Positions 3,250 through 62,756 of a DNA stretch of 64,000 nucleotides are shown piece by piece. The stretch is from Pecten maximus (lineage: Eukaryota). A model generated the notes under the pieces. That model did no database searches. It saw only the letters and a list, made by a program, of their open reading frames with translations, and was not told the origin of the DNA. The stretch is taken from contig NC_047019.1 in the NCBI RefSeq assembly GCF_902652985.1, positions 4,588,001 to 4,652,000 on the forward strand, read 5' to 3'. The first letter of the stretch is position 1, and each line of letters starts with the position of its first letter. A program made the translations under genes and the position numbers.

Positions 3250-3518
3250 AGTTCTAGGCCTCGCTTTTACTCACGACTCACTGTGGAGTCGTGACTCATT
3301 TTGGACTCATGGTCCCAGTACTCACTTGGACTCTCAAGACTCATTTTGGACTCAAGATACATTTTGGACTAGCGGCGATGCTGGCTTATAAAGTACTTTG
3401 CGACTACAAAATAAGTTCAAATGACTCGAGTCTTGTGAGTCCAAAAATGAGTCGTGAGTCCAAAATGAGTCTCGTGAGCCAAAGTGAGGCTTGAGAGTCA
3501 AAGTGAGGCTTGGGACCA
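3250..3518. mobile_element. Foldback MITE-like element built from GACTCA/TGAGTC sub-repeats
   Basis: Left half (GCCTCGCTTT...GACTCATTTTGGACTCA) mirrors right half (TGAGTCCAAAATGAGTC...AAAGTGAGGCT); no coding capacity. Confidence 0.55.
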
Positions 3519-11400: not shown

Positions 11401-11620
11401 GGATAAGTGTAAAATGTACAAATCCCCAGGATAAGTGTAAAATGTACAAATCCCCAGGATAAGTGTAAAATGTACAAGTCCCCAGGATAAGTGTGAAATG
11501 TACAAGTCCCCTTTGTGTGCGTGAGTTGTTCTTGTAAGTAGCCCGGGTCATTGAGACGTGAACAAGTTCCCAGGGTTAGTGTGAGAAATTTTCGGGTTAG
11601 TGTGAGATGTATAAGTCCTC
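5420..11620. repeat. Compound minisatellite array: 28-bp unit CAGTGTGAGATGTACAAGTCCCCAGGGT, 31-bp unit TAGTGTGAGATGGACGTGTAAGTCCCTGGGT (~8280-9680), 28-bp unit AAGTGTAAAATGTACAAATCCCCAGGAT (~10315-11510)
   Basis: Tandem units read directly. Long ORFs in all three minus frames at 10127-11648 result from a stop-free 28-bp unit. An orphan copy of about 3 units lies at ~2856-2960. Confidence 0.97.
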
Positions 11621-21893: not shown

Positions 21894-22429
21894 AGTTATG
21901 TACTCGAAAAATAAATGTGTTTTCAGAAATGTTTACATATTACATTTTATCTTCTTTTCTTAAGAAATATTTGAAAGGGGATTAAAAGTTCATGGATAAA
22001 TCTAATTTTTCACCCCTTCGGAGGTATAGGGCAGAAATTGGAATCTTTACCCAAAGATTCTGAAGTTGACAAACACAATGCTTGCTGATCACAAGATCTC
22101 CCCCCCCCCCCCCCCCCCCCCCATGGTGGTCAAATACTGGGTTTTTTTAATCTGAAAGTGTGGACCAGTCTCTGAGAAAATACACTTTTTGTATTGTAAA
22201 ATCATTTTCACACATGACATAACATCCATGGCACTTAATTATACCGCTGTTCTCTCATTAATAGGAAAGAAAAGCTGGTAAAACATTTAATCTCATAACA
22301 CACCACATCCCAGGTTTTGCATAAACTAATATTTTATGAAGAAAAGAACTCAATATGTAAAATAAAAAGATTGTTTTAAGGATAACAACTTTATTCTTTC
22401 ATGTCCATATAATTTATGATGTATATCGA

Positions 22430-23000
22430 AGGTTCAACCAATATTAGGTTTCACAAATTAGCACATAACGTTCAACCAATATTAGGTTTCACAAATTAGC
22501 ACATAACGTTCAACCAATATTAGGTTTCACAAATTAGCACATGACGTTCAACCGATATTAGGTTTCACAGATTAGCACATGACGTTCAACCGATATCAGG
22601 TTTCACAGATTAGCACATGACGTTCTACCGATATCAGGTTTCACAGATTAGCACATGACGTTCAACCAATGTCAGGATTCACAAATTAGCACATGACGCT
22701 CAACAGATGTTAGGATTCACAAATTAGCACATGACGTTCAACCAATGTTAGGATTCACAAATTAGCACACGACGCTCAACCAATGTTAGGATTCACAAAT
22801 TAGCACATGATGTTCAACCAATGTTAGGATTCACAAATTAGCACATGATGTTCGACCAATGTTAGGATTCACAAATTAGCACATGACGTTCAACCAATGT
22901 TAGGATTCACAAATAAGCACACGACGCTCAACCAATGTTAGGATTCACAAATTAGCACATGATGTTCGACCAATGTTAGGATTCACAAATTAGCACATGT
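22430..23000. repeat. 38-bp minisatellite (GTTCAACCAATATTAGGTTTCACAAATTAGCACATAAC), ~15 copies
   Basis: Direct tandem repeats with a polar gradient of variants. Confidence 0.95.
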
Positions 23001-38700: not shown

Positions 38701-41700
38701 GAAATATGGCTTTTAAAAACTTGAACTGCAAGTTGATGTAAAGATTTGCATTTGTGACATTACCATTCATATACACACTATATGATAATGATGTTGTTAC
38801 GAAGGACCAAGGTACCGGTGAGCTTATGCCATACCGTGGCGTCTGTCGTCCGTCTGTCGTCCGTCCATCCGTCAGCAATTGACTTCTTCTTCATAACCAC
38901 AGATCAGAATTTGACCAAATTGGTCAAAAGCATCCCTATGGGGTGGGGACTCAAAATTGTACAAATGGTGAAGCTGACCCCCCAGGGGTCTAAGGGGCGG
39001 GGCCAAAAGGGGTCAATTTGGCTAAATTGATATAAACGACTTCTCCTCTGAAACTAAGCAATGGATATCACTCATATTCGCCAGGTAGCATCCCCTTGGG
39101 GTAGGGATTCAAAATTGTACAAATGGTTGGGCTGACCCCCCGGGGCTGAGGGGCGGGGCCAAACAGTGTCAATTTGGCTGAATTGATATAAACAACTTCT
39201 TCTCTGAAACTAAGCAATGGATATTGCTCATATTCACCTGGTAGCATCCCCTTGGGGTAGGGATTCAAAATTGTACAAATGGTTGGGCTGACCCCCCGGG
39301 GCTGAGGGGCGGGGCCAAACAGTGTCAATTTGGGTTAATTGATATAAACAACTTCTTCTCTGAAACTAAGCAATGGATATCGCTCATATTCACCTGATAT
39401 TATCCCCTTGGGGTAGGGATTCAAAATAGTACAACTGTTTGGGCTGACCCCCCAGGGGGCTGATGGGCGGGGCCAAACGGGGTCAATTTGGCTAAATTGA
39501 TATAAACAACTTCTTCTCTGAAACTAAGCAATGGATATCGCTCATATTTGCCTGATAGCATCCCCTTGGGGTAGGGATTCAAAATAGTACAAATGTTGGG
39601 GCTGACTCCCCGGGGGGCTGAGGGGCGGGGCCAAAAGGGATCAATTTGGCTAAATTGACATTTTTAGAATTTCAATAAAAGCAATGTTCATGTACCCGTA
39701 TAAAATGCTTATGATATATTGACATATAGCAATACCAGTGACAAATATATCTAAGCATCATTCTTGTTTCATATCTCATAAAACCAGGTGAGCGATACAG
39801 GCCCTCTGGGCCTCTTGTAAATTTATTATATATCTATATATATTAATTTATATATGATATAACTTACTGTTTTTGTAATTATTTACAGAGTATTGTTAAC
39901 AGAGGGAGAAAGAGACCTTCAGGTAATTTTATATATTTTTTTTATTTATTAGTCCGGATCCGCTGCCAAGTAAATTGGGGAAACTATAGGTTTCCTTTCC
40001 ATTTTCTTGTACATTGAAAGATTTTCATCAAATTTCAAGCAATGATTAAGGACCATGATATCTATTCTTGGGACAATTTCAAGTTTCAGGGTTTTTTGAG
40101 TCAAGGTCACTATTTTTATTTTTAATGGGGGCCGATAAGGGACATGTACTGCTTTGGTAATACTCAGCATGCCTGTTTCAATGATTTTATTTGCTGTCAA
40201 TAAAAAATGTACATATACATGTCACCGTGTGTATGTATATAATGACTATACATGTATATTACTTAGGTATTGGAATTATAACTTAAAGACCTTTGACCTT
40301 CACATTAATTCCATGACCTTACTATCATTTATAATTAGACATACACTGGCTATTTTCTTTCAGGTCAGAGATTCCCTATAGAAGAAAGAGAGATCAAGGC
40401 GCGGATGGAGCTTCCTATGGTCCGGGCTGTGCTGGACACCGGGATGAACAGAAACGTAGTAATGCAAGCTATCAGGAACAGAATGGAGGATATTGGTGGG
40501 TATTCACTGCAGTAAAATTGATCGCTGTCTAGTACCACTTGATTCAAAAATGGGAGTTATTGCCTTTTTTTCTCAGTATTTCTATCTTGTTTTGGAATCT
40601 CCTCCCTCAGTTTTGCCAATCTGTATAAAATTTGAAGTATTTCTAATATACCGAGACAGTTTTACTTTTGTAGAAACTTTAGAAGAATTTTAATTGGGCA
40701 TACATTGTATATCTTATTCATAATGTCCATTTCGGTTTTTTCTGTTAACATTTTTCCAGGAATTTTGTACAGTTTAGATCATGTTGACGGGGAAGTGTAC
40801 ATTTTTGTATGTTGTTCTGCTTCTTCCAGCCAGATGTCTGACTGTGCTCTTTTTCAACAGTCCCATTTGAAATTTTGTCATTGCATATAAAGATGATTAT
40901 AATTTTTATCATGATTCCGTTTAGGTGATGACTTCCCGAATGCTGAGGCCCTTATGAACGCTGCCCTGGAAATTATTGATGATCCTGAACAGTTTAGTGC
41001 CGTCAAAGCCAGACGTTCAGGCTCTCAATCGCCCTCTAGTGAACCCCGGGAGACACCAGTGGAGGCAACTTGTATGTTGTTGATTGTAAACTTATAGATC
41101 TTAATTAAAACTTGTGTCAGATGCTATGATCTACTTTCAAGGTCATTAAAATATTCACTTCAATATCGCTTTTTTCTTGCAGACTTCTAAAAGAATTTAA
41201 CCTTGGCCTCGACATTGTTGACCATACCAGATAGGGCTTTTTATATTTGACATGATTTCCTTCTGACAAGATCTTTCTTATACATTTGCAGACCTGCTGA
41301 CCTTAACCATGACCTTTGACCTACTTTTTAAAGACTTTAACCTTGGCCTCGACATTATTGATCATACCAGATGGGCTTTCATATTTGACATGTTTTCCTT
41401 TTGACAAGACCTTTCGTATACAATTGCTGACAGTAACCGCGACCTTTGACCTACTTTTATACAACTTAACATTGGCTACTGTATGTTAAATGTACGAGAC
41501 GGGGCTGTCAGATTGACATTTGTGTTTCTTCTGACAAGACTTTTCCATTGATGCTATGCATTTGCTGACCTGCTTACCTTAACCGTGACCTTTGACCTAC
41601 TTTAAAAGATTTTGATTTGTTCACATGATAGGGGTTTAAATGTTTTAAAGTGAATTTTGTTGCACAATCAAGAGGTCTACAGTGATATTTAATCAAAAAG

Positions 41701-42856
41701 ATGAATGAACTTTGATTTGACCTTACTACATGCTGATATACATCAGGTATATTAGAGTCAAATCAGAATGACCTGTTGCATTGACCTTTTCATGGAATAT
41801 TCAAAGTTCCATTTGTGCATGGGTGTGTTAACAAAACATATTGATTATTTAGAATACTAGTGTCCAGCAGGGTGCTGTTTTGGACCATTCATTTTTGTTA
41901 CAATTTTATATTGACAACACAGGGATTGTATCATTTATTTTTGATGCATGGTTTGAACATATTCAACTAACAATGTGATAAATTGTTCACATGTTAACAG
42001 TTTTGTTGCTAAATCTAGACCAGTATATACAAATGATGCAGCTGATGATAAGGTTTGTTACATTATAAACAACTAACAGATACACATGTATATATACAAA
42101 GCACCTATTTATCCCTAAATGACCTATAGACTCCTAATCAATATGCTAATAAAGTTCAACACGACAGGTCATTCTTGTCGGACTATACAATTAATTCAAG
42201 TGACATGTTGTTCTATAGGTGAGGAGGCAAGCAGCTCAAATGAGGAAAGACTAAATTCAGGAAAATCAGATGATCCAGGTAATGTATTGAAAAAAACATC
42301 CTTGTTTCGATTCCATTCGAACATGTGTTTCCATACCAGTTTAATATAGTGTAGTAGACAACCTTACTGTGTTCTGACAAATGTACATTTGAGTTTTACA
42401 GATGACAATGAATTAATCAATACAGTTGCAAATCTCAAATCATGTTTTTCCTCATCGAAATCAACATGATTTCAATTCATACATTTTGTATTTATAGGCT
42501 AACCCACGATAAAGATAATTTTCATGCAAAATTTACATAAAGTATATATGACACAGAAAAAAATCTTTTCTCAGATGGCTAGCCATTTATATGAAATTAT
42601 TAAGTTACTGTTATTTTCTTATTTTCTGGTCAATCATTTACTCAATTTGTTGATATTTACATGTTTAGATTTATCAGAAGAGATTCGGACACTGAAGGAC
42701 CAGAAGACGTGCAAGATCTGTTTAGATGCGGAGGTGGGAATGGTATTTCTGCCCTGTGGCCACCTTTGTGCCTGCGTCACATGCGCTCCCGCTGTACAAC
42801 ATTGTCCGATCTGTCGTTGTGACATCAGAGGAACTGTAAGAACCTACATGTCATAA
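35742..42856 (+). CDS. Baculoviral IAP repeat-containing protein (BIR-BIR-BIR-UBA-RING; cIAP/XIAP/DIAP2-like), 726 aa
   Basis: GT-AG exons 35742-37182, 37691-37869, 39889-39922, 40364-40495, 40925-41071, 42219-42278, 42669-42856 sum to 2181 nt in frame. Three BIR motifs (RLKSF..WP...LAAAGLYY...C..C...W...H...CPF), a UBA-like segment ([24 protein letters not shown]) and a C-terminal RING ([36 protein letters not shown]). Confidence 0.95.
38800..39818 (+). mobile_element. HINE/pearl-like non-autonomous Helentron with ~156-158-bp central tandem repeats, in an IAP intron
   Basis: 5' GGTGAGCTTATGCCATACC followed by (GTCC/GTCT)n, ~5 internal repeats (TGAAACTAAGCAATGGATAT at 39049, 39205, 39361, 39519), and 3' CAGGTGAGCGATACAGGCCCTCTGGGCCTCTTGT with a terminal palindrome. 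Confidence 0.8.
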
Positions 42857-47925: not shown

Positions 47926-48204
47926 ATGTTACATGTATCTGATATTAGAAAATAGTTTTGATATCAGAAAACGGCAATGAATATTCTTTGGTCTATTCTG
48001 AAACCGGGCACAATTAAAGTATGGAATCGATCCGGAGATATAGTGCTCATACATGTAGGGATCTGTTTTCAACATTGATTATGAGACATGTTACCATGGA
48101 GTCATATTTAACGAAATGTTATACCAGAACACTGACAGATCAGAAAGGACCTCCTTAGTGTGGCCATTTATGTCCCCCATACATGAAGTCACAAAATACG
48201 AAAT

Positions 48205-51200
48205 GTTGAATGTCTAGCGACACAACATTCAAAATCTGAATGTCATGTGTCGAGCTACACAACATTCAAAATCTGAATGTCATATGTCTAGCGACACAAC
48301 ATTCAAAATCTGAATGTCATATGTCGAGCTACACAACATTCAAAATCTGAATGTCATATGTCTAGCGACACAACATTCAAAATCTGAATGTCATGTGTCG
48401 AGCTACACAACATTCAAAATCTGAATGTCATGTCGAGCGACACAACATTCAAAATCTGAATGTCATATGTCTAGCGACACAACATTCAAAATCTGAATGT
48501 CATGTCGAGCTGCACAACATTCAAAATCTGAATATCATATGTCTAGCGACACAACATTCAAAATCTGAATCTCATATGTCTAGCGACACAACATTCAAAA
48601 TCTGAATGTCATGTCGAGCTGCAAAACATTCAAAATCTGAATGTCATGTGTCGAGCTACACAACATTCAAAATCTGAATGTCATATGTCTAGCGACACAA
48701 CATTCAAAATCTTAATGTCATGTGTCGAGCTACACAACATTCAAAATCTGAATGTCATGTGTCGAGCGACACAACATTCAAAATCTGAATGTCATATGTC
48801 TAGCGACACAACATTCAAAATCTGAATGTCATATATCGAGCTACACAACATTCAAAATCTGAATGTCATGTCGAGCGACGCAACATTCAAAATCTGAATG
48901 TCATATGTCGAGCTACACAACATTCAAAATCTGAATGTCATGTGTCGATGTACACAACATTCAAAATCTGAATGTCATATATCGAGCTACACAACATTCA
49001 AAATCTGAATGTCATGTCGAGCGACGCAACATTCAAAATCTGAATGTCATATGTCGAGCTACACAACATTCAAAATCTGAATGTCATATGTCTAGCGACA
49101 CAACATTCAAAATCTGAATGTCATATGTCCAGCTACACATTCAAAATCTGAATGTCATGTGTCGAGCTACACGACATTCAAAATCTGAATGTCATGTGTC
49201 GAGCTACACAACATTCAAAATCTTAATGGCATATGTCGACCTACACAATTAACATTCAAAATCTGAATGTCATATGTCGAGCGAAACAACATTCAAAATC
49301 TGAATCTCATGTGTCGAGCTACACAACATTCAAAATCTGAATGTCATGTGTCGAGCTACACGACATTCAAAATCTGAATGTCATTTGCCGAGCTACACAA
49401 CATTCAAAATCTGAATGTCATATGTCTAGCGACACAACATTCAAAATCTGAATGTCATATGTCTAGCGACACAACATTCAAAATCTGAATGTCATGTCGA
49501 GCTGCAAAACATTCAAAATCTGAATGTCATGTGTCGAGCTACACAACATTCAAAATCTGAATGTCATATGTCTAGCGACACAACATTCAAAATCTGAATG
49601 TCATGTGTCGAGCTACACAACATTCAAAATCTGAATGTCATGTGTCGAGCGACACAACATTCAAAATCTGAATGTCATATGTCTAGCGACACAACATTCA
49701 AAATCTGAATGTCATATATCGAACTACACAACATTCAAAATCTGAATGTCATGTCGAGCGACGCAACATTCAAAATCTGAATGTCATATGTCGAGCTACA
49801 CAACATTCAAAATCTGAATGTCATGTGTCGATGTACACAACATTCAAAATCTGAATGTCATATATCGAGCTACACAACATTCAAAATCTGAATGTCATGT
49901 CGAGCGACGCAACATTCAAAATCTGAATGTCATATGTCGAGCTACACAACATTCAAAATCTGAATGTCATATGTCTAGCGACACAACATTCAAAATCTTA
50001 ATGGCATATGTCGACCTACACAATTAACATTCAAAATCTGAATGTCATATGTCGAGCGAAACAACATTCAAAATCTGAATCTCATGTGTCGAGCTACACA
50101 ACATTCAAAATCTGAATGTCATGTGTCGAGCTACACGACATTCAAAATCTGAATGTCATTTGCCGAGCTACACAACATTCAAAATCTGAATGTCATATGT
50201 CTAGCGACACAACATTCAAAATCTGAATCTCATATGTCTAGCGACACAACATTCAAAATCTGAATGTCATGTCGAGCTGCAAAACATTCAAAATCTGAAT
50301 GTCATGTGTCGAGCTACACAACATTCAAAATCTGAATGTCATATGTCTAGCGACACAACATTCAAAATCTGAATGTCATGTGTCGAGCTACACAACATTC
50401 AAAATCTGAATGTCATGTGTCGAGCGACACAACATTCAAAATCTGAATGTCATATGTCTAGCGACACAACATTCAAAATCTGAATGTCATATATCGAGCT
50501 ACACAACATTCAAAATCTGAATGTCATGTCGAGCGACGCAACATTCAAAATCTGAATGTCATATGTCGAGCTACACAACATTCAAAATCTGAATGTCATG
50601 TGTCGATGTACACAACATTCAAAATCTGAATGTCATGTCGAGCGACGCAACATTCAAAATCTGAATGTCATATGTCGAGCTACACAACATTCAAAATCTG
50701 AATGTCATATGTCTAGCGACACAACATTCAAAATCTGAATGTCATATGTCGAGCTACACATTCAAAATCTGAATGTCATGTGTCGAGCTACACGACATTC
50801 AAAATCTGAATGTCATGTGTCGAGCTACACAACATTCAAAATCTTAATGGCATATGTCGACCTACACAATTAACATTCAAAATCTGAATGTCATATGTCG
50901 AGCTACACAACATTCAAAATCTGAATCTCATGTGTCGAGCTACACAACATTCAAAATCTGAATGTCATGTGTCGAGCTACACGACATTCAAAATCTGAAT
51001 GTCATTTGCCGAGCTACACAACATTCAAAATCTGAATGTCATATGTCTAGCGACACAACATTCAAAATCTGAATCTCATATGTCTAGCGACACAACATTC
51101 AAAATCTGAATGTCATGTCGAGCTGCAAAACATTCAAAATCTGAATGTCATGTGTCGAGCTACACAACATTCAAAATCTGAATGTCATATGTCGAGCTAC

Positions 51201-51581: not shown

Positions 51582-53212
51582 AAGTTCCTTCGTTGGCTAG
51601 TGAAAACATGTTGACCATGCTTCACGTAAGTGAATCGATAAATGAATAACTCATCGCTTGACCTTGCACTTTGACCTACTGCTCTTGACATTATGTGCGG
51701 TCATATTAATCGAGCCGACATGGCGGGTTTAGTTACGAAATGGTAAACCATTTGTAACATTCCACGGGTCGGAGTGAAGAATGCGCTGATGGTTCAATTG
51801 TCAACGGCATATTCAGGTCAATATTCAACGCTGAAAACTGACCCCGGGTCAATTTTCAACGTGGGTCCATTTTCAACGTTATAAAGGGCCGTAGTGTTTC
51901 CCCTAAGAAATATTACTGACCCCCCTATAGTCTCATGGGGTCACTAACATGTGACCCTTTTTTCACCTATCAAATGCAACAAGTCTGTCCGATCCGACAA
52001 GTTTATTATCCGGAAGCAAAAATTTCCGTGACGTCATAAATACACTTAATAAATTATAGTGACAATTAATGCAGAGCAAATGGAAATATACCTTGACTCT
52101 AGAAGGTTAACAAATTAAAGTTTATTTTTTGACTGAATGACATTGCATGCTTTCAAAACAGTAGAAGGCAAATTGTATTCATTGAAAAAAAAAAAAAAAA
52201 CAGGCGTCGAGTTATTATATGGAATAGAAGCATTTGTTTTGGTGAGAAACTATCAATTTCTAAACATTTTCTTCGGGTTTGAGAGTATGGTTTATATAAC
52301 TTTTCGTTACACAACCAATGGAAGACCGATCAGAAAGCAGTCGGGGTCACAGATCAATAAATAGGCTGTTGTATATACATAACACCCCGTACAAAAAATA
52401 AAATTAACATGTGATCGACTGGAAAACCCCAAAAGTATTGGAAAGGTAGAGCAATCCTTCGAGGCGGCAGATTTTAAAAAAGCAACATTTTGATACACCG
52501 CAGTGGGTCAGTACTAAGTCGAGATGAGGGGGCACATAGACTCTCGCAACGGCATATTACATATGACCACTATTAGGCAAAGGGTAGCAGAATAGAGTCG
52601 TTTCGATACATGATGATTGTTGCGCATGTATACATACATGTACATCATTAGGTATATGCATGTATTACCAGGTCAGTATCTGGCTATCGTGGTTTTTTTT
52701 AAAATAGATCAGATTAAAGATTAGCTTTGCTGAACGGGTTTTTATCCCCGGTAAAAATCAAGTTTGTTATTATTATAAATATACGACATTGGCTAACTAC
52801 GCCGATCTAGCTGTAACAATTACAGGTTCACTTAAAAATACTAAATAATACACACATTAATTGTTATAATTGATATGTAACATACTCAGACACATATTAA
52901 TACATTGTAGGTCTCTGGCATGGTGGGGGAAATAATGGATAGCATGTTCAATATTTTTGGTCCACATGAAAAAACCAAAGTCACTCCACATGAATAAAGG
53001 GCCTTTTTTGCTAAAAATTATTAGCTTTGACATCTGAAATTAATTAGCCTTTGAGGCATATATAAAATCATAGAATTCCATTGTAATAAATGACCTTAAC
53101 ATGTTTCAGTGACAACATAACATTGTCTATTGTCTTGTCCAAACTATACCATTGTAAGAAACGAATGTTTTGTAGATCTACCAATAGACTACACTTTTGA
53201 TATGCTCATATA

Positions 53213-54020
53213 TGTCACACGAGTAGTATAATATGTGGGTATTTCTTCAATTATGCACAAACAATGTTCAAATGAAGCACAGTTTATTTAACATAAACAC
53301 AGACACACACACGGAGACAGTGACCTGAAATAAAAAGAACAATACCTAAAATACATACGGACACGTGTAAACGATGCCGACAATTACATTATTCAATACT
53401 TAACGCATTAAATATTCATTTAGGTATATTTTATATGTTTATATTATATTCTATTTTATTCCATAGTTACACTTTTACAATAAACAATTATAATACATTA
53501 TTTTTACAATAGCTTTGACCCTATGGAGCCCGACCACGTGTACGTCATATGTAAAATATTTTAACATATTAAGGGCAAGATATTTAAAATGCAAATATAT
53601 TAGTTTAATGTATTTTATATATCAAATAGCTAAAATACATTAAATATGTATTTATATTATTATTTTAAATTAAATAAACTTACCTAGAAGCACTGTGGCC
53701 GTAAAGCACACAGGCTTATACCAGACGTGTATGTTGGTGCAGGGTCTATAGCCGTTGTGGCTGCACTCACCTGGGCAAGGCCCAGGTAAAGTTTTCCACG
53801 TGCACGGGTATAGGGTCATGCAGGGTCAAAGTGACACACTCAACCAATCCTTGCGCTCACCTCTCATACGTCACCATAACAACTATATACACAGGTACAT
53901 AGGACATTATATGACACAGGGACTTGTACAAACATTATACACGATACACAGCGCAAGTATTTATACACACTTTACATGTACAGGTGTTGGTCAGACTATT
54001 AAAGTTTGACCACCGTGACA
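53213..54020 (-). repeat. 3' LTR
   Basis: Direct repeat of 61736-62543 with two substitutions seen by eye; adjacent to the PPT. Confidence 0.97.
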
Positions 54021-54031: not shown

Positions 54032-54124
54032 AAAGGAAAATGACTCCTGGCATTTCAACTAATATATCAACCACAATGGTTGAATCTACTAATAATATAA
54101 AAGAATGAGCAGCTAATTATCTAA

Positions 54125-54175
54125 TATCCAAGTGATTGGGGCAATCCCTACCTACGAGGAATACAAGATAACTGC
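54125..54175 (-). other. Putative structured cis-acting RNA element, copy A (3' UTR)
   Basis: 49/51 nt identical to 59917-59967; folds into a bulged long stem-loop on the element strand. Confidence 0.6.
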
Positions 54176-54503: not shown

Positions 54504-57500
54504 CTAGACGTAGACTTCAGCTCCAGAATTGGACGGTACCAAGGTTCCCATGAGCCATTCCCCATACAAGTTAGGAGATTTACAGACTCGCCTGGGCCTT
54601 ACAGCTGGTATCGAGTCTTGTGTCTGACCTTCACTGCCTGCAGTGTTGGAATTTCGACACACACCCTTATTACCCTGTTTCGGAGAATCCCCTGAACCAA
54701 CAGTATGTGGTTGCACTGGCTGTCGCGACTCAGCAACAGTGCGTCTGGGTCTCCTAGCAGGAATAACATATCTGGGTGTTTGACTCCCATCCTCATCTGA
54801 GCTATCAGAGTCAGTAGTTGAGGAGGAACTCTCAACTAACTCTATTCCGGCATTCTGATGATTTCGGGTTGTCTCCCTTGGTTCCTGGGCACCCGCTGTT
54901 CTGGGTAACCACATGAAAGGGAGGAGCAGGTTCCTATGTACAGTTTTTATAGGTCCCTTTCCCGACTCTTTCTGGATCTTGTATACAGGCATATCAACAT
55001 TTGGCACACTAAGGATAATGTAGGGATCCTTAGCCCATTTATCTGCCAACTTTTGCTTGCCACATATACCAACGTTCCTCATCAGAACCCGGTCTCCTAC
55101 TTCTAAGGTAGCTTCTCTAACCCCCCTATCATACCTATCTTTGTACCGCTTACCCTTCCTTTCACTTTCAGCCGAGGCAGCTTTGTAGGCAAAGTCTAAC
55201 CGACGCTTAAGTTTCTGGGCATAATTCTGACGACTCCCTACAGTCTCAGAACTGGTATCGATGCCAAGAAATGCATCTACACCAAGTCTCGGGTGCCAAC
55301 CAAACATTAAGTAATGAGGAGAATATCCTGTGGTCTCATGTTTTGTTGCATTGTATGCATGAACAAGAGGAGCCACATAGGATTTCCAACTGGATTTTTG
55401 TTCTTCCTCCATAGTACCTAACATTTTCAACAGTGTTTGGTTGAACCGTTCGACCATGCCATTGCCCATAGGATGGTAAGGGGTAGTTCTGGTTTTCTCC
55501 ACTCCAGCTATCTTGCAAAGTTCTTTGATAACTTTGCTTTCAAAATTCCTGCCCTGGTCACTATGAATACGGGCAGGAAAGCTGTAGTGGACCATAAATT
55601 GTTCGTACAACACCCTGGCGGTGGTACTCGCTAATTGGTTCCTGGTTGGAATTGCTTGGGCATAGCGGGTGAAATGGTCAGTGATAACAAGCACGTTTTC
55701 GTAGCCCCCCTTTGACCTTTCTAAGGTCAAATAGTCAATGCAGAGAAGCTCCATTGGACGGGAACTTTGGATATTGACTAACTCTGCACTTGGGACAGTA
55801 GGGGTTTTTCTACGAACACACCTACCACAGCTTTCAACCCAACTATTCACCTCAGCATCAAGGCCTGGCCAGAAAAACCTTCGCCTTGCCAACCAGTTTG
55901 TACGGTCACGTCCCTGATGACCGACATCTTCATGCACTCCCCTGAGGACTTTCTCCCTATATGCCTTGGGAATGACTAACTGTTGAACAGGGTCACCATC
56001 TACTGTGGTGTTTCTATACAGAACACCCTTAAGTAGCCTCAACAGCCGCCACTCCCGCATATATTGACACACCTCCTCAGGTTCGTGTTTCAATATCTTT
56101 TTATCAGGTCGAATCCCCTCCCTGACAAAATCTATCACCCTCCTAAGATGTTTATCTAAGGACTGTTGTTTTTCCCAATCCACACCAGAGAGTTTTACAT
56201 TCCCTATATTTAGGGTGTTGTTCTCCGGTTCTAGGGATGATGTATTTGAGAGTACAACAGTTTCTGCTAAAGGCAACTCCTCTCTAGTGGACAAAGAAGC
56301 ACAGGTAACTGCTCTCACTACATCTGGGAAAACTTCCTCTTGCTGATACGGTCGTCTTGACAACCCGTCAGCATCCCCATTGAGACGGCCCGCTCTATAA
56401 ACTAATTTAAAGTTATAGTTTGAGAGTGAGGCTAACCACCTATGACCTGCTGCGTCCAGCTTCGCTGTGGTCGTCACATAGGTTAGAGGGTTGTTATCTG
56501 TACGTACCTCAAAAGTGTTGCCATACAGGTAATCATGGAACTTGTCAGTGAGTGCCCATTTGAGACAAAGAAATTCCAACTTATGAGCTGGGTAGTTTCT
56601 TTCACTCGGACGTAAACCTCGACTGGCAAACGCAATCACCCTTTCATGGCCCCCTTGATTCTGGTACAGCACAGCACCTAAACCTTCTACAGAGGCATCT
56701 GTGTTAACAATGAAAGGCTTGGTGAAGTCTGCATATGCTAACACAGGTGGAGAAGCTAGAAGACTGACTATGGTATCGAAAGCCTTCTGCTGACTATCCC
56801 CCCATACCCAGGGAATCTTTTTCTTTGGCCCCTTAACATTTTTGTGGGTACAGTGTCCAACAAGAAGATCATTTAAAGGTTTTATGATTTTTGCATAATC
56901 CTTAATGAACCTCCTGTAGTACCCTGTGAAACCTAGAAATGAGCGTAGCGTCTTGACATTGACAGGTTCTGGCCATGTCTTCAACGCCGCAAGTTTATCT
57001 GGGTCAGTTTGAATTCCTTCCTCAGAAACAATGTGCCCCAGATAGCACACTTGAGACTTAAAGAATTCACATTTGGAGGGCTTTAGCTTTAAGCCGTGTT
57101 TTTCAAGCCGTTCAAACACACCCTCCAGTCTTTTGAGGTGTTCCTCAAAGGTGTCTGAAAATATGAGAATGTCATCCAGGAAAATTAAACATTCCTTAAG
57201 ATGGCTTTCACCCATACAAGCTTGCATCAATCTTTGAAAAGTTGCTGGCGCATTAGTTAGACCAAATGCCATGCGGTTACATTCAAAGAAACCTAGTGGT
57301 CCGACAGAAAAAGCTGTCTTTGCCTTGTCCTCCTCCTTGATCTCGACTTGCCAGTATCCAGACCTCAGGTCCAGCTTACTGAAGTATCTTGATCCAATTA
57401 AGGAGTCCAAGGTTTCCTCCACCCTAGGTAGGGTGTAGGCATCCTTAATGGTTTTCCCATTGAGTTTACGCAAATCAATGCAAAATCTTAGGGACCCATC

Positions 57501-58646
57501 TTTCTTTCGAACGAGGACCACATTCGAACAGTAGGGACTGTGAGACTCTCTGATAGCGTCAGACTCCATCATCTCCTTAAGATGTTGTCTCACTTCCTCA
57601 TACATCCCTGGTGGAATACGACGATATGGTTCCTTAAATGGAACATCGTCTGAGAGTTTTATCTCGTGTTGCACCAAGTCTGTCTTTCCCAAATCCTTTG
57701 AGGATGTGGAGAAAATATGCTGCCACTTGCCCAGTATCTGGTATGCTCTCTCCAACTGTTCAGGAGAGAGGTTGTCCTTGTTTACTGAGACCCCCAGTTT
57801 GTCCCACCATTCCCCCTCCACCTGATCCTTAGAGGATTCAGTATCATCTTTGTCAGAGGGTTCTGGGGACCACCTGTCCATTACCTTTACATCTGTTAGA
57901 GTACACAAAGGTGATTTTGGAGAGATAGTAATTGACTCTGTAGAGAGATTACAGATCCGGACTGGTATACGTTTGAGTCTACCAGGTGCGCATTCCAGCG
58001 ACACTACCCTTGGACATACCACCAGGTTCCCGGATTGCAGTGAGCTGTCCTGTTCTGTCACAGCTGTACTAAAGTTCCCCACCTTGCGTACCAACCCATG
58101 GACAGTCTTTACCTGGTTTGGACCTATGGACACTGGGTATGTATTGGCAGATTTCACCACCATGGGATTATTGACACACAAACTGTCAACAGCAGACTGC
58201 CAAGCATCTGGAAAAGTAGAATCAGAGCTAGCCTGTTGTATATCCCTACACATACGTATAATATTTGTGCCAACAATAACAGGAACTTGTCTGTTATAGT
58301 TGGTCATCGGTGTTACCAATATAGGTACACACATCACGCAATCAGACAGAAATGGAATACTGACATCTGCCTCAATATATCCCAAGTATGGTAACTTGGA
58401 CCCACCTGCTCCGAATACCTGAAGATCAAAATCTTTGATATCCATCAGAACAGGCCTGGGGTTCAGAGATTTATAACAATTCTCTGAAATGCAAGTGATC
58501 ATAGAGCCACTATCAATGAGAGCAGAATGTGTCTTCCCCCCTATTATGATCTGGTCAATATTTGAGCTACCAACCATTCGTTCATACAGGGTACTGTCTG
58601 TAGCGGTATTGTTACTTGGGCCATTCCTACCTTCACCACCCCCCAT
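54504..58646 (-). CDS. pol: Pol polyprotein (aspartic protease, reverse transcriptase, RNase H, integrase)
   Basis: ALIDSGS protease motif; RT motifs LRFCIDLRKLN, DLRSGYWQ, MAFGLTNAPATFQ, FLDD; RNase H TDAS...HKLEFL...TDNNPL; integrase HHCC (HEDVGH...CGRC) and D-D-E (CIDY, HSDQG, VERFN); uninterrupted 1380 aa. Confidence 0.97.
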   Translation of the reverse strand: MGGGEGRNGPSNNTATDSTLYERMVGSSNIDQIIIGGKTHSALIDSGSMITCISENCYKSLNPRPVLMDIKDFDLQVFGAGGSKLPYLGYIEADVSIPFLSDCVMCVPILVTPMTNYNRQVPVIVGTNIIRMCRDIQQASSDSTFPDAWQSAVDSLCVNNPMVVKSANTYPVSIGPNQVKTVHGLVRKVGNFSTAVTEQDSSLQSGNLVVCPRVVSLECAPGRLKRIPVRICNLSTESITISPKSPLCTLTDVKVMDRWSPEPSDKDDTESSKDQVEGEWWDKLGVSVNKDNLSPEQLERAYQILGKWQHIFSTSSKDLGKTDLVQHEIKLSDDVPFKEPYRRIPPGMYEEVRQHLKEMMESDAIRESHSPYCSNVVLVRKKDGSLRFCIDLRKLNGKTIKDAYTLPRVEETLDSLIGSRYFSKLDLRSGYWQVEIKEEDKAKTAFSVGPLGFFECNRMAFGLTNAPATFQRLMQACMGESHLKECLIFLDDILIFSDTFEEHLKRLEGVFERLEKHGLKLKPSKCEFFKSQVCYLGHIVSEEGIQTDPDKLAALKTWPEPVNVKTLRSFLGFTGYYRRFIKDYAKIIKPLNDLLVGHCTHKNVKGPKKKIPWVWGDSQQKAFDTIVSLLASPPVLAYADFTKPFIVNTDASVEGLGAVLYQNQGGHERVIAFASRGLRPSERNYPAHKLEFLCLKWALTDKFHDYLYGNTFEVRTDNNPLTYVTTTAKLDAAGHRWLASLSNYNFKLVYRAGRLNGDADGLSRRPYQQEEVFPDVVRAVTCASLSTREELPLAETVVLSNTSSLEPENNTLNIGNVKLSGVDWEKQQSLDKHLRRVIDFVREGIRPDKKILKHEPEEVCQYMREWRLLRLLKGVLYRNTTVDGDPVQQLVIPKAYREKVLRGVHEDVGHQGRDRTNWLARRRFFWPGLDAEVNSWVESCGRCVRRKTPTVPSAELVNIQSSRPMELLCIDYLTLERSKGGYENVLVITDHFTRYAQAIPTRNQLASTTARVLYEQFMVHYSFPARIHSDQGRNFESKVIKELCKIAGVEKTRTTPYHPMGNGMVERFNQTLLKMLGTMEEEQKSSWKSYVAPLVHAYNATKHETTGYSPHYLMFGWHPRLGVDAFLGIDTSSETVGSRQNYAQKLKRRLDFAYKAASAESERKGKRYKDRYDRGVREATLEVGDRVLMRNVGICGKQKLADKWAKDPYIILSVPNVDMPVYKIQKESGKGPIKTVHRNLLLPFMWLPRTAGAQEPRETTRNHQNAGIELVESSSSTTDSDSSDEDGSQTPRYVIPARRPRRTVAESRQPVQPHTVGSGDSPKQGNKGVCRNSNTAGSEGQTQDSIPAVRPRRVCKSPNLYGEWLMGTLVPSNSGAEVYV

Positions 58647-58666
58647 TTGCCCTACAACAGGGGAGG

Positions 58667-59842
58667 TTACTCTTTTGGCTCAGACTTACCTGTTGAGGAC
58701 TTCTGGGTATTACCATTTTTTTGTTTCTGGTAAGTATTGCCGCGTCCAGCATTACCTTTATTTTGGTATGCCCCAGACTTACCAGTACCCTCAAGTTTCT
58801 TTTCGAGAGAATTGATTTTGCTCATCAAGGCACTTACCTGCTCACTGAGCTTGTCAAGCTTTTTATCACTCTCCGAAACTTGTATAGGGCTGTGTTGGGC
58901 TTTAGCCTTTGTAGGCTTATTGGCCGCTTTCTGTGCTGGGTTGAGCTCTAGGTCTACCGCTCTAACCTCCCTCAACAGCAAGTCGTATGACTTAATAGAG
59001 TCATACTTGTGACGCGTCTGGCCTTTCAATCTGTCGCAGCGCAAGCCAGTCCAAAATTTGGATCGGATCATGTCATCCCTGGCTGAAGGGCTTACATGTC
59101 CACTGTTTATGGCAAGCTGCAACAGTGCCTCTAGTCTGCACCCGAATGCGGTGACAGATTCACCTTCTTTCTGTGTAGCAGAATAGAACTGCTGTAATAC
59201 AACTTCATTAGAAGCTACATTACCAAAGAAGGTGTCCAACTTTTTCAGAACTTCATCCAAAGTTGCCATAGGACCTAAAGGTATAAGAGTCTGACGAGCG
59301 ATACCCCTGAGTGATTTCCTTATAGCCTGAAGAACAAGCTCTTCGGACAGGGTGCTGTCAGATGCTAGACACCTGACCTCGTATCGCCATCCCTCATATG
59401 TGGTTTCACCACGTTGAGGTGACTCATCTCCTGAAAATGAGGAGATTTTCGGAACCTGGGGTAAAAGGTGTGTATTCCTATTCAGCGATGGAGTTAGAGG
59501 AACCCCATATCCTCCCCCCAGACCCGAAAATGGAGAATCATTAGATATAGGAGGTAAAGGAGTACTGGTATTCCCCCCATCCCCAAGTCCAGCGAAATCA
59601 AATTTTAATGAACCTTGGGCCCCTACCATACCTTTGTCACTGCTCGCAGATTTAACATTAACAGGAGCTTGTGACACAGCAGGAGTTTTGATAGAGCCAG
59701 GATCTCTTACACTCAGCATGCTATCATACTCCATCTTGGTAAATAGGACATAGTCACTATTCTGGCGCAGAAGGCTAGCCATGAGGTCATAGTCTGCCTG
59801 CTCCAAGTTGGAGGTTCCTGCTGGTGGCTTTGAGTCTGCCAT
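58667..59842 (-). CDS. gag: Gag (PNMA/Ma-like capsid), no CCHC knuckle
   Basis: PKISSFSG...YEGWRYEV...IRKSLRG...QQFYSATQKEGESVTAFGCRLE is typical of PNMA-type Gypsy capsids; a coiled-coil and a K/G/N-rich tail follow. Confidence 0.92.
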   Translation of the reverse strand: MADSKPPAGTSNLEQADYDLMASLLRQNSDYVLFTKMEYDSMLSVRDPGSIKTPAVSQAPVNVKSASSDKGMVGAQGSLKFDFAGLGDGGNTSTPLPPISNDSPFSGLGGGYGVPLTPSLNRNTHLLPQVPKISSFSGDESPQRGETTYEGWRYEVRCLASDSTLSEELVLQAIRKSLRGIARQTLIPLGPMATLDEVLKKLDTFFGNVASNEVVLQQFYSATQKEGESVTAFGCRLEALLQLAINSGHVSPSARDDMIRSKFWTGLRCDRLKGQTRHKYDSIKSYDLLLREVRAVDLELNPAQKAANKPTKAKAQHSPIQVSESDKKLDKLSEQVSALMSKINSLEKKLEGTGKSGAYQNKGNAGRGNTYQKQKNGNTQKSSTGKSEPKE

Positions 59843-59916
59843 CTCAGACTAAATACAAATATAAAAACTACAAATTAATATATGTAAACAATGAACTAAG
59901 CAGTGAATATATCAAG

Positions 59917-59967
59917 TATCCAAGTGATTGGGACAATCCCTACCTACGAGGAATACAAGACAACTGC
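59917..59967 (-). other. Putative structured cis-acting RNA element, copy B (between SGNH ORF and gag)
   Basis: 49/51 nt identical to 54125-54175. Confidence 0.6.
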
Positions 59968-60019: not shown

Positions 60020-60742
60020 TTACACACAATAAGTACAAATTGAAACAACAAGTCTTTTCATCCAACACCTAGCTAGTAGAGGACTAGGATGGATCCCATC
60101 CTTGTACAGACTAAAATTCAATGAGATCCGGGACTTATCCTGGTTTCTCGACTTCCTGTACCTAACTAAGTCTAACCTAAGATGAGGTGAACAGACTTGA
60201 GATCTAGTATTGACCTCTGTCAGGAAGCTGTTCAATTCCAACACTCTCTCATTTAGAATGAGATCTTGAGTTTGGAATGAATCAGGGTTTGGATGCCCCT
60301 TGGATTTATTCCACTCTTGTATAGAGTATGAGGGGATTTCCAAAAATAATAACTGTACAGTAGGAAATTGGGACACTATGGAAATAAACTTGTTAATTTC
60401 AAACTGCAAATCCGAACTAGCAGATATAGAAGTCTGATGTCGTAAACTAATGAATTTCCCTTGCTTTACTGTGAGGTCACATGTACCTAACCACACATAT
60501 AAAACAATATTTGGATATGAACTAACCCTAATTGGAAGTTCAGTTTCCAACCAGCGAAGGAAATGTATAAAGCGACCACCTGGTTGGCAATGGAACTCAA
60601 GACTACAGTCTAAGTGCTGTAGCAAATCCAAATGCCTTTTCAGGTAAAATCCCTTACTACTAGTAAGAAGTATAGGTTTCTTCCTTATAGTAACATTAGG
60701 AACAGCTTTATCAATAAATTTCTGGAGCTTACTACAACTCAT
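60020..60742 (-). CDS. SGNH/GDSL hydrolase (esterase)-like protein, 240 aa, carried inside the LTR element
   Basis: Motifs in canonical order and spacing: block I ILLTSSKG (GDS-like, Ser kept), block II PGG, block III VWLGTCDL (GxND-like), block V YKDGIHP (DxxH). Intact ATG-to-TAA ORF between the PBS and gag. Confidence 0.8.
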   Translation of the reverse strand: MSCSKLQKFIDKAVPNVTIRKKPILLTSSKGFYLKRHLDLLQHLDCSLEFHCQPGGRFIHFLRWLETELPIRVSSYPNIVLYVWLGTCDLTVKQGKFISLRHQTSISASSDLQFEINKFISIVSQFPTVQLLFLEIPSYSIQEWNKSKGHPNPDSFQTQDLILNERVLELNSFLTEVNTRSQVCSPHLRLDLVRYRKSRNQDKSRISLNFSLYKDGIHPSPLLARCWMKRLVVSICTYCV

Positions 60743-61720
60743 AACCTATTGCGGTTTCAGAGTATACGAATACAAAATGATACTAAACCTGTAACTGTAA
60801 CTACAACATACAAAAATAGTATGAGTAGGGACAATATCTAAGTTATTAGAATATAAAATACACTGCGCTGACATAAAACACAAAGGACAGATACACCATT
60901 TACAAACCCATCTCTGGCATCTTCCTCCCACTCTCAGCCTTCTTAGTATTCCCCTTCCGCTACAGTGCAGTGCAATGTGTGCAAGGTTAGTGGTTCAGAA
61001 TTGTTAGCTGGGAAGCAAGCATGCAAGATATAAATATCTTATAGTTTTGTAAATAAGTATCACAGTTAAGTTTAAACTTAAGAAATATATGTTTAAATAT
61101 TGTAAATGTTTAAATTCCTTAATAAATAAACCGATTTACGCGATATATTTAAATATATTGAAATATCGGCGTTATTTTTACATTTACATTTAATAATATA
61201 TTTTACCATAAATGTTTAAAATTCACTGATTTGATTTATGTCTACAATTATAGACTGACAAGATATAAACGTCCTGAAAATAAACATCATACATGAAACA
61301 AATGAATAATAAATGAATAATCAATAGTATCACAGTGTTACAAATGTTCAAATGACAAGATATCTAGCAATTAAATTTAAAGTCAGTTCATATAAAACGC
61401 GAACGAAAAATGTCAACAGTCACTGGAAACGGATCCGCACTGGACGACACAGAAAATGTTACAATTAATCCATCGGCGACAGCAGGAAACGAACCATGGA
61501 CGACGAAGAAACGATGACAGGACTATGATAATCAATAAATCACACAGTCATGACGAAGTAACGAGACGAAAACAGTTGACGAACAGCAAACACCATCACC
61601 GGAAGCACATGTTGTCGTTGCTCCAGAGTGATCTCCCCTGATCATGTCATCCGGTTATCACGTGATCACCCACGTGGTAAAACGTGGGCGTACGATGCCA
61701 CTGCCTCCGTAAAAGAAATT

Positions 61721-61734
61721 CACGTTGGGCGCCA
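61721..61734 (-). other. Primer-binding site for tRNA-Lys(CUU) (Lys1,2-type)
   Basis: TGGCGCCCAACGTG one base after the 5' LTR matches the first 14 nt of the classic Lys1,2 PBS TGGCGCCCAACGTGGGGC. Confidence 0.9.
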
Positions 61735-61735
61735 A

Positions 61736-62543
61736 TGTCACACGAGTAGTATAATATGTGGGTATTTCTTCAATTATGCACAAACAATGTTCAAATGAAG
61801 CACAGTTTATTTAACATAAACACAGACACACACACGGAGACAGTGACCTGAAATAAAAAGAACAATACCTAAAATACATACGGACACGTGTAAACGATGC
61901 CGACAATTACATTATTTAATACTTAACGCATTAAATATTCATTTAGGTATATTTTATATGTTTATATTATATTCTATTTTATTCCATAGTTACACTTTTA
62001 CAATAAACAATTATAATACATTATTTTTACAATAGCTTTGACCCTATGGAGCCCGACCACGTGTACGTCATATGTAAAATATTTTAACATATTAAGGGCA
62101 AGATATTTAAAATGCAAATATATTAGTTTAATGTATTTTATATATCAAATAGCTAAAATACATTAAATATGTATTTATATTATTATTTTAAATTAAATAA
62201 ACTTACCTAGAAGCACTGTGGCCGTAAAGCACACAGGCTTATACCAGACGTGTATGTTGGTGCAGGGTCTATAGCCGTTGTGGCTGCACTCACCTGGGCA
62301 AGGCCCAGGTAAAGTTTTCCACGTGCACGGGTATAGGGTCATGCAGGGTCAAAGTGACACACTCAACCAATCCTTGCGCTCACCTCTCATACGTCACCAT
62401 AACAACTATATACACAGGTACATAGGACATTATATGACACAGGGACTTGTACAAACATTATACACGATACACAGCGCAAGTATCTATACACACTTTACAT
62501 GTACAGGTGTTGGTCAGACTATTAAAGTTTGACCACCGTGACA
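61736..62543 (-). repeat. 5' LTR
   Basis: Direct repeat of 53213-54020; adjacent to the PBS. Confidence 0.97.
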
Positions 62544-62756
62544 TATACGGAGATCCAAATCTATCGATTACAGAGAATGAAAATATTTTCCATTGCATCC
62601 AACTTTATATTTTAAAAACCAAACGTTTTTTAAATTAATAGTGCCATTTTACGAGTCCCAAGAGGTCACTATAGTGCTGTATATTTACATTATATTACTA
62701 TGTTTTATTATGTCATTTTGCTTATGTAGTACCTATAGTATCACTAGGTCCCATTA

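What the first reader, a model, noticed from the sequence alone, without database searches (positions are those of the whole stretch)
60020..60742. Intact SGNH/GDSL esterase gene placed as first ORF (before gag) in a young Gypsy LTR retrotransposon
Seen: a 240-aa uninterrupted ORF between the PBS and gag, on the element strand, with all four SGNH blocks (TSSKG, PGG, GTCD, DGIHP). The Ser and DxxH catalytic residues are kept; block I has S for the usual D and block III has C for the usual N. Established: SGNH esterases occur in ORF1p of CR1/L2-type LINEs and as extra ORFs in some Penelope-like and bdelloid rotifer LTR elements. Standard Ty3/Gypsy elements carry gag-pol with at most a downstream env. 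Inference: this is a three-gene Gypsy lineage in which a lipid- or acetyl-esterase accessory protein may help membrane targeting, particle egress or entry in place of Env, or counter host defence. Cell-to-cell or waterborne movement of retroelements is plausible in bivalves.
Basis: partly seen in the sequence, partly recalled or inferred. Interest (0 to 1): 0.85.

Follow-up and report, generated by a model that had tools for sequence, protein, structure and literature searches.

The report
Esterase gene ahead of retrotransposon gag
A recently inserted jumping gene in what is probably a scallop genome carries an extra esterase-fold gene in front of its two usual genes; such enzymes are known from other mobile elements, but this position and this enzyme family appear to be undescribed.

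Summary
Confirmed. A 240-aa ORF (60742-60020, minus strand) lies between the primer-binding site and gag of an intact Ty3/Gypsy element (808-nt LTRs, 2 differences; 4-bp target duplication). It has no Pfam or PDB sequence hit, but its AlphaFold model (pLDDT 94) matches SGNH hydrolases (Z 17.1). It belongs to a large family (1,520 representatives): the Ser-Asp-His triad is intact in 149 of 160 rows, with near-fixed Lys after the serine and Cys for the oxyanion Asn. A second, distant Gypsy element (pol 38% identical) has the same SGNH-gag-pol order and shares a 25-nt hairpin core downstream of pol. Bivalve gene models also join homologues to LINE-type domains. The protein is basic, without signal peptide or transmembrane helix, so it is not Env-like. 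Best reading: a cytosolic, membrane-seeking accessory acyl-hydrolase, by analogy with the ZfL2-1 esterase; activity and role are untested. SGNH genes are already known from CR1/L2/RTEX LINEs, Ngaro, Penelope-like elements and rotifer Gypsy ORF3. Ten literature searches found no 5'-of-gag case; Repbase, GyDB and Dfam were not checkable, and gene order is seen directly in only two elements. New variant of a known kind.

The parts
61736..62543 (-). 5' LTR, 808 nt, TG...CA; holds two splice-donor-like sites (62293, 62206) and an acceptor-like site (61848)
   Evidence: use of the splice sites is inferred
62544..62547 (.). target-site duplication TATA, 5' side
61721..61734 (-). primer-binding site one base after the LTR (tRNA-Lys type by recall; no tRNA was available to test)
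   Evidence: 0 tRNA genes in window
60743..61720 (-). AT-rich leader; 20 ATG triplets in the 992 nt from the PBS start to the ORF start
60020..60742 (-). SGNH-fold hydrolase ORF, 240 aa: S29-K30, G55, GTC88D, D215-x-x-H218; N-terminal amphipathic helix 3-13; basic beta-hairpin about 193-208
59899..59967 (-). hairpin repeat, copy 1 (25-nt core 59948-59924), 71 nt after the SGNH stop
58667..59842 (-). gag, 391 aa, PNMA-type capsid domain (PF14893, E 1.5e-14); no zinc knuckle among the 6 Pfam families reported
58625..58690 (-). gag/pol junction: overlapping frames, stem-loop right after the gag stop, acceptor-like AG at 58652; GTAAGT donors at 58837, 58782, 58689
   Evidence: mode of pol expression unresolved
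54504..58646 (-). pol, 1380 aa from the first ATG: protease (weak hit, E 0.023), RT, RNase H, integrase, in Ty3/Gypsy order
54108..54175 (-). hairpin repeat, copy 2 (core 54156-54132) in the 3' untranslated region; 90% identical to copy 1; core shared with locus L001
54021..54029 (-). polypurine tract abutting the 3' LTR
53213..54020 (-). 3' LTR, 808 nt
53209..53212 (.). target-site duplication TATA, 3' side

Best explanation
The ORF is a true accessory gene of a Ty3/Gypsy lineage with the order LTR-PBS-SGNH-gag-pol-LTR (shown in two elements). It encodes a soluble, strongly basic SGNH-fold serine hydrolase (fold and triad shown by prediction and conservation; catalysis inferred). Most likely it is made in the cytosol from its own, probably spliced, message (inferred), docks on negatively charged membranes through its N-terminal amphipathic helix and basic hairpin (inferred from charge and from the ZfL2-1 esterase), and removes an acyl group from a lipid or an acylated protein, which helps the element's RNA-protein particle assemble on, travel with or be released from intracellular membranes in the germ line (inferred). 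The fixed Lys30 and Cys88 suggest a slow enzyme tuned to one anionic substrate rather than a general esterase (inferred). Architecture and fold alone deserve about 0.95; the confidence given is for the membrane-acting role.
For: Fold: pLDDT 94.2, pTM 0.90; top match 4rw0 GDSL protein Z 17.1, rmsd 2.6, 174 aligned; 76 Foldseek matches at E<=0.001; 8 of 47 alignment members hit Lipase_GDSL at E<=0.1. Constraint: S29 158, G55 151, D215 153, H218 153, whole triad 149 of 160 rows, across proteins down to about 24% identity. Lineage: L001 has SGNH (38% identical), PNMA/CCHC gag (19%) and pol (37.6%) in the same order; 6 of 53 homologues sit on contigs of 7.0-8.1 kb, none at 6-7 or 8.1-9 kb, against an internal region of 7,715 nt. 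Charge: pI 9.45, median 9.46 in 158 homologues; net positive in 159 of 160, segment 193-206 at +3 or more in 143 of 159. Precedent: the ZfL2-1 esterase is slow, basic, and binds anionic lipids and liposomes through surface charge (PMC3905857).
Against: No activity, lipid binding, expression or localisation was tested. The oxyanion Asn is Cys in 157 of 160 rows, so activity may be low or of another kind. A basic surface fits nucleic-acid binding equally well. No sequence link to the ZfL2-1 esterase was found even with a 131-sequence profile, and its transposon-specific His is Trp here (137 of 160), so the analogy is not close kinship. There is no coiled-coil tether as in ORF1p and no fusion to Gag was found, so how it would reach the particle is open. 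ZfL2-1 ORF1p is dispensable in HeLa assays. Gene order is seen directly in only 2 elements; contig lengths are circumstantial. Acceptor-like sites before the three ATGs rank only 139, 25 and 69 of 605 AGs by a crude score.
Confidence: 0.45

Rival explanations
1. Counter-defence enzyme: the protein removes an acyl or acetyl group from a host silencing or immunity factor (or a signalling lipid), and sits first so that it is made early; a service useful to any retroelement.
For: Catalytic triad conserved in 149 of 160 rows; stand-alone protein with no structural link to Gag; homologues joined to LINE-type PHD or APE domains in three gene models, as expected of a generic, swappable service. Deacetylation of regulators and reversal of palmitoylation are listed as options for retroelement esterases in PMC3905857.
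Against: No host target or test. [quoted passage not shown]
Confidence: 0.22
2. RNA-binding regulator: the SGNH fold works as in Oskar, binding the hairpin found after the SGNH and pol stops to control export, stability or packaging of element RNA; catalysis is secondary.
For: Basic protein with an Arg/Lys hairpin; Oskar OSK domain is a fold match (Z 14.1, rmsd 2.5, 163 aligned); a 25-nt core is shared by both SGNH-bearing elements, 20 of 25 bases, reached by 0 of 1000 shuffles.
Against: Oskar has lost the triad (PMC10792757) whereas this family keeps it; Oskar ranks 30th, below true esterases. Whether the hairpin is confined to SGNH-bearing elements was not testable. The basic ZfL2-1 esterase did not bind oligo-A RNA. 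L001 has no copy after its SGNH stop.
Confidence: 0.12
3. Env substitute: the esterase lets env-less particles leave one cell and enter another, or move between animals through seawater.
For: No env ORF: the 3' untranslated region is 483 nt. Membrane penetration was proposed for rotifer GDSL ORF3s (PMC5408684). Family is broad in marine invertebrates.
Against: No signal peptide or transmembrane helix: maximum 19-residue hydropathy 1.35; above 1.6 in 4 of 158 homologues; hydrophobic N-terminus in 1 of 158. The rotifer paper itself judged an env-like role unlikely for ORFs lacking TM/CC domains. Nearest gag relatives follow the host group (Pecten, Argopecten), as with vertical descent.
Confidence: 0.1
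4. Primer-conditioning enzyme: it hydrolyses the aminoacyl ester of charged tRNA, freeing the 3'-OH needed to prime reverse transcription.
For: Inference only: ester hydrolase fold, basic surface, fixed Lys beside the nucleophile.
Against: Homologues lie next to LINE-type domains, and LINEs use no tRNA primer (established knowledge); most Gypsy elements prime without such an enzyme.
Confidence: 0.04
5. Neutral passenger: a captured host gene or a fragment of another element inserted into this copy's leader.
For: Only one copy of the ORF lies in the window; no dN/dS could be computed.
Against: Same position in a distant element; no introns; closest SGNH relative 85% and closest gag relative 83% identical, and none of 37 differences touches S29, K30, G55, C88, D215 or H218.
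Confidence: 0.03

Closest known systems
Vesta1 LTR retrotransposons of bdelloid rotifers with GDSL ORF3 (PMC5408684; passages read)
   Same: LTR element with PR-RT-RH-IN pol and an extra stand-alone SGNH ORF lacking TM domains; ORF type shared with other retroelement classes; function unshown.
   Different: There the ORF is ORF3 downstream of pol, S-G-N-H are all intact and pol has a dUTPase; here it is upstream of gag, has Cys for Asn, and Pfam reports no dUTPase.
Esterase ORF1p of CR1/L2/RTEX LINEs, ZfL2-1 (PMC3905857, parts 2-4 of 6 read; PDB 4C1B)
   Same: SGNH fold in the first ORF of a retroelement; basic; similar block wording (FPGARV, HVGTND, D-LHPS in PMC10792757 Table 2).
   Different: ORF1p has a coiled coil and replaces Gag; here the hydrolase stands alone beside a real Gag. 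His191 is Trp and Asn195 is Cys here; no sequence hit to 4C1B.
Ngaro (DIRS order) elements with Hydro-SGNH ORF (PMC9210276, passages)
   Same: Extra SGNH ORF in a gag/RT-RH retroelement, no proven function.
   Different: Tyrosine recombinase, split direct repeats, ORF after YR; not an integrase LTR element.
Plant Ogre/Tat Ty3/gypsy elements with an extra ORF 5' of gag (position recalled; only the reference title of Steinbauerova 2011 was seen)
   Same: Extra ORF between PBS and gag in Ty3/Gypsy.
   Different: Plant lineage; that ORF is, as recalled, not an SGNH hydrolase.
Texim SGNH genes carried by fish Helitrons (PMC4021074, passages)
   Same: SGNH hydrolase moved by a transposon in animals.
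   Different: Intron-containing, no RT link, DNA transposon.

Membership tests
Ty3/Gypsy (Metaviridae) LTR retrotransposon | direct LTRs with TG...CA and 4-6 bp target duplication | tested here: met
   808-nt LTRs, 2 differences, TATA duplication
Ty3/Gypsy (Metaviridae) LTR retrotransposon | PBS and polypurine tract | tested here: met
   positions and sequence; the tRNA type is recalled, not tested
Ty3/Gypsy (Metaviridae) LTR retrotransposon | pol order PR-RT-RH-IN | tested here: met
   (protease hit weak, E 0.023); same order in L001
Ty3/Gypsy (Metaviridae) LTR retrotransposon | RT phylogeny placing it in a named clade (MolGy etc.) | not testable with these tools
   no reference RT set available; PMC6238403 names the clades, its additional files were not read
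Troyka | CG...CG termini and 3-bp duplication (PMC12440569) | tested here: not met
   TG...CA and 4 bp here
SGNH hydrolase-like superfamily | flavodoxin-like SGNH fold | tested here: met
   Z 17.1, rmsd 2.6, 174 aligned; Foldseek E 3.8e-8; predicted model
SGNH hydrolase-like superfamily | block I Ser, block II Gly, block V Asp-x-x-His | tested here: met
   158, 151, 153 and 153 of 160 rows; residue before Ser is Ser here, Thr is a documented alternative to Asp
Canonical SGNH group (all five residues) | block III Asn | tested here: not met
   Cys in 157 of 160; about half of solved superfamily representatives also depart from the strict pattern, so this lowers canonical-group membership, not superfamily membership
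SGNH hydrolase-like superfamily | ester hydrolysis dependent on the Ser | not testable with these tools
   needs an assay
CR1/L2/RTEX ORF1p esterases | transposon-specific His four residues before the block III Asn | tested here: not met
   Trp84 in 137 of 160, His in 1
CR1/L2/RTEX ORF1p esterases | N-terminal coiled coil before the esterase | tested here: not met
   only one 9-residue helix precedes the first strand in the model
CR1/L2/RTEX ORF1p esterases | sequence or fold closeness to 4C1B | tested here: inconclusive
   not listed; 4C1B is a domain-swapped chain, which hampers fold matching
Rotifer Vesta1 GDSL-ORF3 elements | esterase ORF downstream of pol | tested here: not met
   upstream of gag in both elements
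Rotifer Vesta1 GDSL-ORF3 elements | sequence kinship of the esterase | not testable with these tools
   Vesta sequences not retrievable
Env proteins of errantivirus type | signal peptide and transmembrane anchor, ORF after pol | tested here: not met
   hydropathy scan; position
Oskar-type RNA-binding SGNH domain | catalytic triad absent | tested here: not met
   triad in 149 of 160 versus PMC10792757

The most novel reading that the evidence does not exclude
A widespread, undescribed 5' accessory cassette of marine-invertebrate retroelements: a Ser-Lys/Gly/Cys/His hydrolase family with well over a thousand divergent members, placed in front of gag in several Gypsy lineages and in front of ORF1 in LINEs, acting as a free-standing matrix-like or egress enzyme that carries env-less particles across membranes into germ cells or between hosts, with a conserved, uncatalogued RNA hairpin as its cis partner.
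Probability: 0.2. Interest if true: 0.82.

Novelty: new variant of a known kind. Interest (0 to 1): 0.58.

Why it matters
Retroelements of at least four classes have picked up SGNH hydrolases, and why is an open question: in the one case with biochemistry (ZfL2-1) the domain is fused into ORF1p and is dispensable in HeLa assays. Here the hydrolase is a small stand-alone gene in a young, intact element, with a large conserved family and a distinctive active site, so substrate and localisation can be tested on the isolated protein and its presence or absence mapped on a pol tree. It also shows that bivalve genomes hold many unannotated or mis-joined genes of this family, and it points to a shared RNA hairpin that Rfam does not list.

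Tried and rejected
Sequence searches of the query against Pfam (0 families) and PDB (0 hits; with a 131-sequence profile 11 hits, best E 0.31). Plasmid and phage collections: no match; viral fold library gave only remote phage esterase domains at 8-15% identity. Fusion to Gag or Pol: the longer-protein search returned 2 of 7,496 candidates, neither a gag/pol fusion (weak evidence by the tool's own note); the profile scored no better than E 0.17 on 82 gag relatives. Cluster look-up for names and sources could not be made, so hosts of most homologues are unknown. Complex prediction Gag with SGNH: no answer, score 0.01 against a mark of 0.34, alignments not used; not counted either way. IQ-TREE did not finish; FastTree used instead: window, L001 and 5 of the 6 homologues on 7-8 kb contigs fall in one 50-row branch (support 97), the two LINE-joined rows elsewhere, but the label-shuffle test was not significant (97 of 500). 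Hairpin: no Rfam family at gathering score; no further copies with a covariance model; 0 of 8 core pairs show two-sided change in 3 sequences; an 18-of-25 match after the gag stop is within chance for a 64-kb window; plain blastn did not detect the core between the two elements. Troyka rejected by termini. The sigma-70 promoter scan is not meaningful for this host. dN/dS and sister-copy checks were not possible: one copy in the window, no eukaryotic genome collection; metagenome and viral contig collections stayed unchecked.

Full report
Observation. It lies inside an intact LTR retrotransposon on the same strand. The LTRs align over 810 nt at 99.75%; the true ends are TG...CA at 62543-61736 and 54020-53213, with 2 differences, and TATA is duplicated on both flanks. 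A PBS-like 14-mer starts one base after the 5' LTR and a purine tract abuts the 3' LTR; the tRNA-Lys label is recalled. After a 992-nt leader with 20 ATG triplets comes the ORF, then 177 nt, gag (391 aa, PNMA domain, E 1.5e-14) and pol (1380 aa; protease, RT, RNase H, integrase). The 3' untranslated region is 483 nt, leaving no room for env. None of 2000 shuffles of the PBS-to-gag region gave an ORF of 240 codons. The nearest gag is a Pecten maximus model (317 identities, 7 mismatches, 29 gap columns), then Argopecten, so the host is probably a scallop (inference).

The protein. Pfam and PDB sequence searches of the query gave nothing. Homologue searches found 53 proteins among 358 candidates and, with a profile, 1,520 representatives at 50% clustering with E<=0.001, 263 at E<=1e-30 (only the best 150 were listed). 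The few named ones are bivalve models or sequences filed under symbiont or invertebrate metagenomes; the nearest Atlas cluster is 93% eukaryotic, commonest Mollusca, the third Annelida. The AlphaFold model from a 47-sequence alignment has pLDDT 94.2 and matches SGNH/GDSL hydrolases: top Z 17.1, rmsd 2.6, 174 aligned; Foldseek E 3.8e-8. I aligned the query, L001 and the 158 of 200 stored proteins that were 215-275 aa long (42 dropped by length): Ser29 158, Lys30 155, Gly55 151, Cys88 157, Asp215 153, His218 153, whole triad 149 of 160. So the Ser-for-Asp change in block I is a local variant (12 of 160), while Cys for the oxyanion Asn and Lys after the nucleophile mark the family. About half of solved SGNH representatives also depart from the strict pattern (PMC10792757 section 8). 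The protein is basic (pI 9.45; net positive in 159 of 160 rows), has an amphipathic N-terminal helix and an Arg/Lys-rich hairpin just before the Asp-x-x-His loop (+3 or more in 143 of 159), and has no transmembrane or signal-like stretch.

Is the arrangement a lineage trait? The one scan of bacterial and archaeal genomes returned one locus, L001, on contig JBEVXV010000340.1 of a Sedimenticola MAG; I read it as animal-host DNA in that bin (inference). It carries SGNH (217-936), gag with PNMA and CCHC (1255-2307) and pol (2349-6878) in the same order. Identities to the window element are 38% (SGNH), 19% (gag), 37.6% (pol) and 54% over the RT region: a distant element. Its 5' end is seen only through a 99-nt repeat at the locus ends, which puts a PBS-like site 404 nt before the ATG. 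Indirect support: 6 of 53 homologues come from contigs of 7.0-8.1 kb, none from 6-7 or 8.1-9 kb, and the internal region here is 7,715 nt, as expected where short-read assemblies break at LTRs; 5 of these 6 share a 50-row branch with both LTR proteins (support 97), though the shuffle test on labels was not significant, 97 of 500. The closest SGNH (85%) and gag (83%) relatives have diverged alike, with no change at the six key residues among 37 differences; that they come from one element is not shown. Not all homologues need be in LTR elements: three gene models join the domain, N-terminally, to LINE-type parts, namely a PHD-type ORF1 (P0201, Mytilus coruscus; P0155, PHD E 1.8e-6, tails 22.6% alike, E 4e-7) or an APE endonuclease (P0202, Pinctada). 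These are predicted joins, so adjacency by nested insertion is not excluded.

Cis features. A 69-nt repeat (90%) lies after the SGNH stop and again after the pol stop. Its 25-nt core recurs 84 nt after the pol stop in L001 with 20 of 25 matches; 0 of 1000 shuffles reached 20. The 3' copy folds into a long hairpin (z -3.9; the spacer copy -1.7; the opposite strands fold about as well) and L001 has a long stem with different arm sequence. Three sequences show no covariation in the core and Rfam has no match. How the three ORFs are expressed is open. The leader's many ATGs argue against simple scanning. The element strand has 8 GTRAGT sites, 2 per LTR and 3 in the last 171 nt of gag, against 2 on the other strand; each ORF has an AG within 6 nt of its ATG, though these rank only 139, 25 and 69 of 605. 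The donor at 58782 is in phase with the AG at 58652, and the partial Pecten model ends at 58784. A stem-loop right after the gag stop would equally fit a -1 frameshift.

Mechanism. Shown: architecture, fold (predicted), conserved triad, charge, absence of membrane anchors, recurrence in a distant element. Inferred: catalysis, membrane docking, role in particle handling. I favour a membrane-seeking acyl-hydrolase (0.45) because the only characterised retroelement esterase, ZfL2-1, is likewise basic, slow (kcat 0.32 per s) and binds anionic lipids by charge (PMC3905857). Against close kinship: its specific His is Trp here (137 of 160), there is no coiled coil, and no sequence hit to its structure. 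Rivals are a counter-defence deacylase (0.22), an Oskar-like binder of the hairpin (0.12), an Env substitute (0.10), a tRNA deacylase (0.04) and a passenger (0.03).

What is known. SGNH ORFs are reported as ORF3 downstream of pol in rotifer LTR elements and in Terminons (PMC5408684, passages; PMC6431247 and PMC5718144, passages), after the recombinase in Ngaro (PMC9210276, passages), as ORF1p in CR1, L2, RTEX and Penelope-like elements (PMC3905857, parts 2-4 of 6; PMC4120745, passages) and in Helitrons (PMC4021074, passages). An extra ORF 5' of gag is recalled for plant Ogre/Tat. Ten full-text searches showed no paper describing an esterase ORF before gag in Gypsy. Term look-ups in three surveys found no mention of esterase or hydrolase in the main text: mollusc LTR elements (PMC6238403), bivalve TEs (PMC10294476), env-carrying Gypsy (PMC13524379). 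PMC10886601 (passages), PMC12440569 (parts 1-2 of 5), PMC9063065 (passage) and PMC8557442 (one reference line) did not bear on it. No supplements were read, subscription papers and Repbase Reports are outside the library, and Repbase, Dfam and GyDB could not be queried; a curated entry may already show this ORF.

Verdict. Real and more than a one-off: a Gypsy element with a conserved, atypical SGNH gene in first position, from a family that seems to serve several retroelement classes in marine invertebrates. The theme is known; the position, the family and the hairpin were not found in print. New variant of a known kind; interest 0.58.

Noticed in passing
window 59948-59924 and 54156-54132 (-); L001 6963-6987 (+): Shared 25-nt hairpin core after stop codons in two distant Gypsy elements, not in Rfam; the two window copies flank gag-pol, so recombination between them would leave an SGNH-only non-autonomous element.
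   Followed up: partly
proteins P0201, P0155, P0202: Gene models join this SGNH family to LINE-type PHD ORF1 or APE endonuclease in Mytilus and Pinctada, hinting at the same 5' cassette in LINEs.
   Followed up: partly
window 58837, 58782, 58689, 58652 (-): Three GTAAGT donor-like sites at the end of gag and an in-phase acceptor before pol; pol could be made by splicing rather than frameshifting.
   Followed up: partly
window 62206-61848 (-), mirrored in the 3' LTR: Intron-like segment inside the LTR: strong donor-like and acceptor-like sites about 360 nt apart.
   Followed up: no
L001 1-99 and 10805-10903; contig JBEVXV010000340.1: An animal-type Gypsy element in a bacterial MAG, apparently repeated with a period of 10,804 nt (tandem copy, circle or assembly artefact); its 3' region includes a short inverted-repeat element near 9300-9500.
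   Followed up: no
window 35697-37235 and 42524-42856 (+): Host inhibitor-of-apoptosis gene: large exon with three BIR matches and a likely RING-coding last exon, about 10 kb from the insertion.
   Followed up: no
window 5400-11550, 15500-17000, 22300-23100, 48065-51000: Several minisatellite arrays (27-31, 39-42, 38 and 35-37 nt units); the long ORFs at 10127-11551 and 15950-17040 are translations of these repeats, not genes.
   Followed up: no
window 20369-20710 versus 38932-39639: A 156-nt tandem unit present in inverted orientation at two places about 18.5 kb apart, probably a repeat-bearing non-autonomous element.
   Followed up: no
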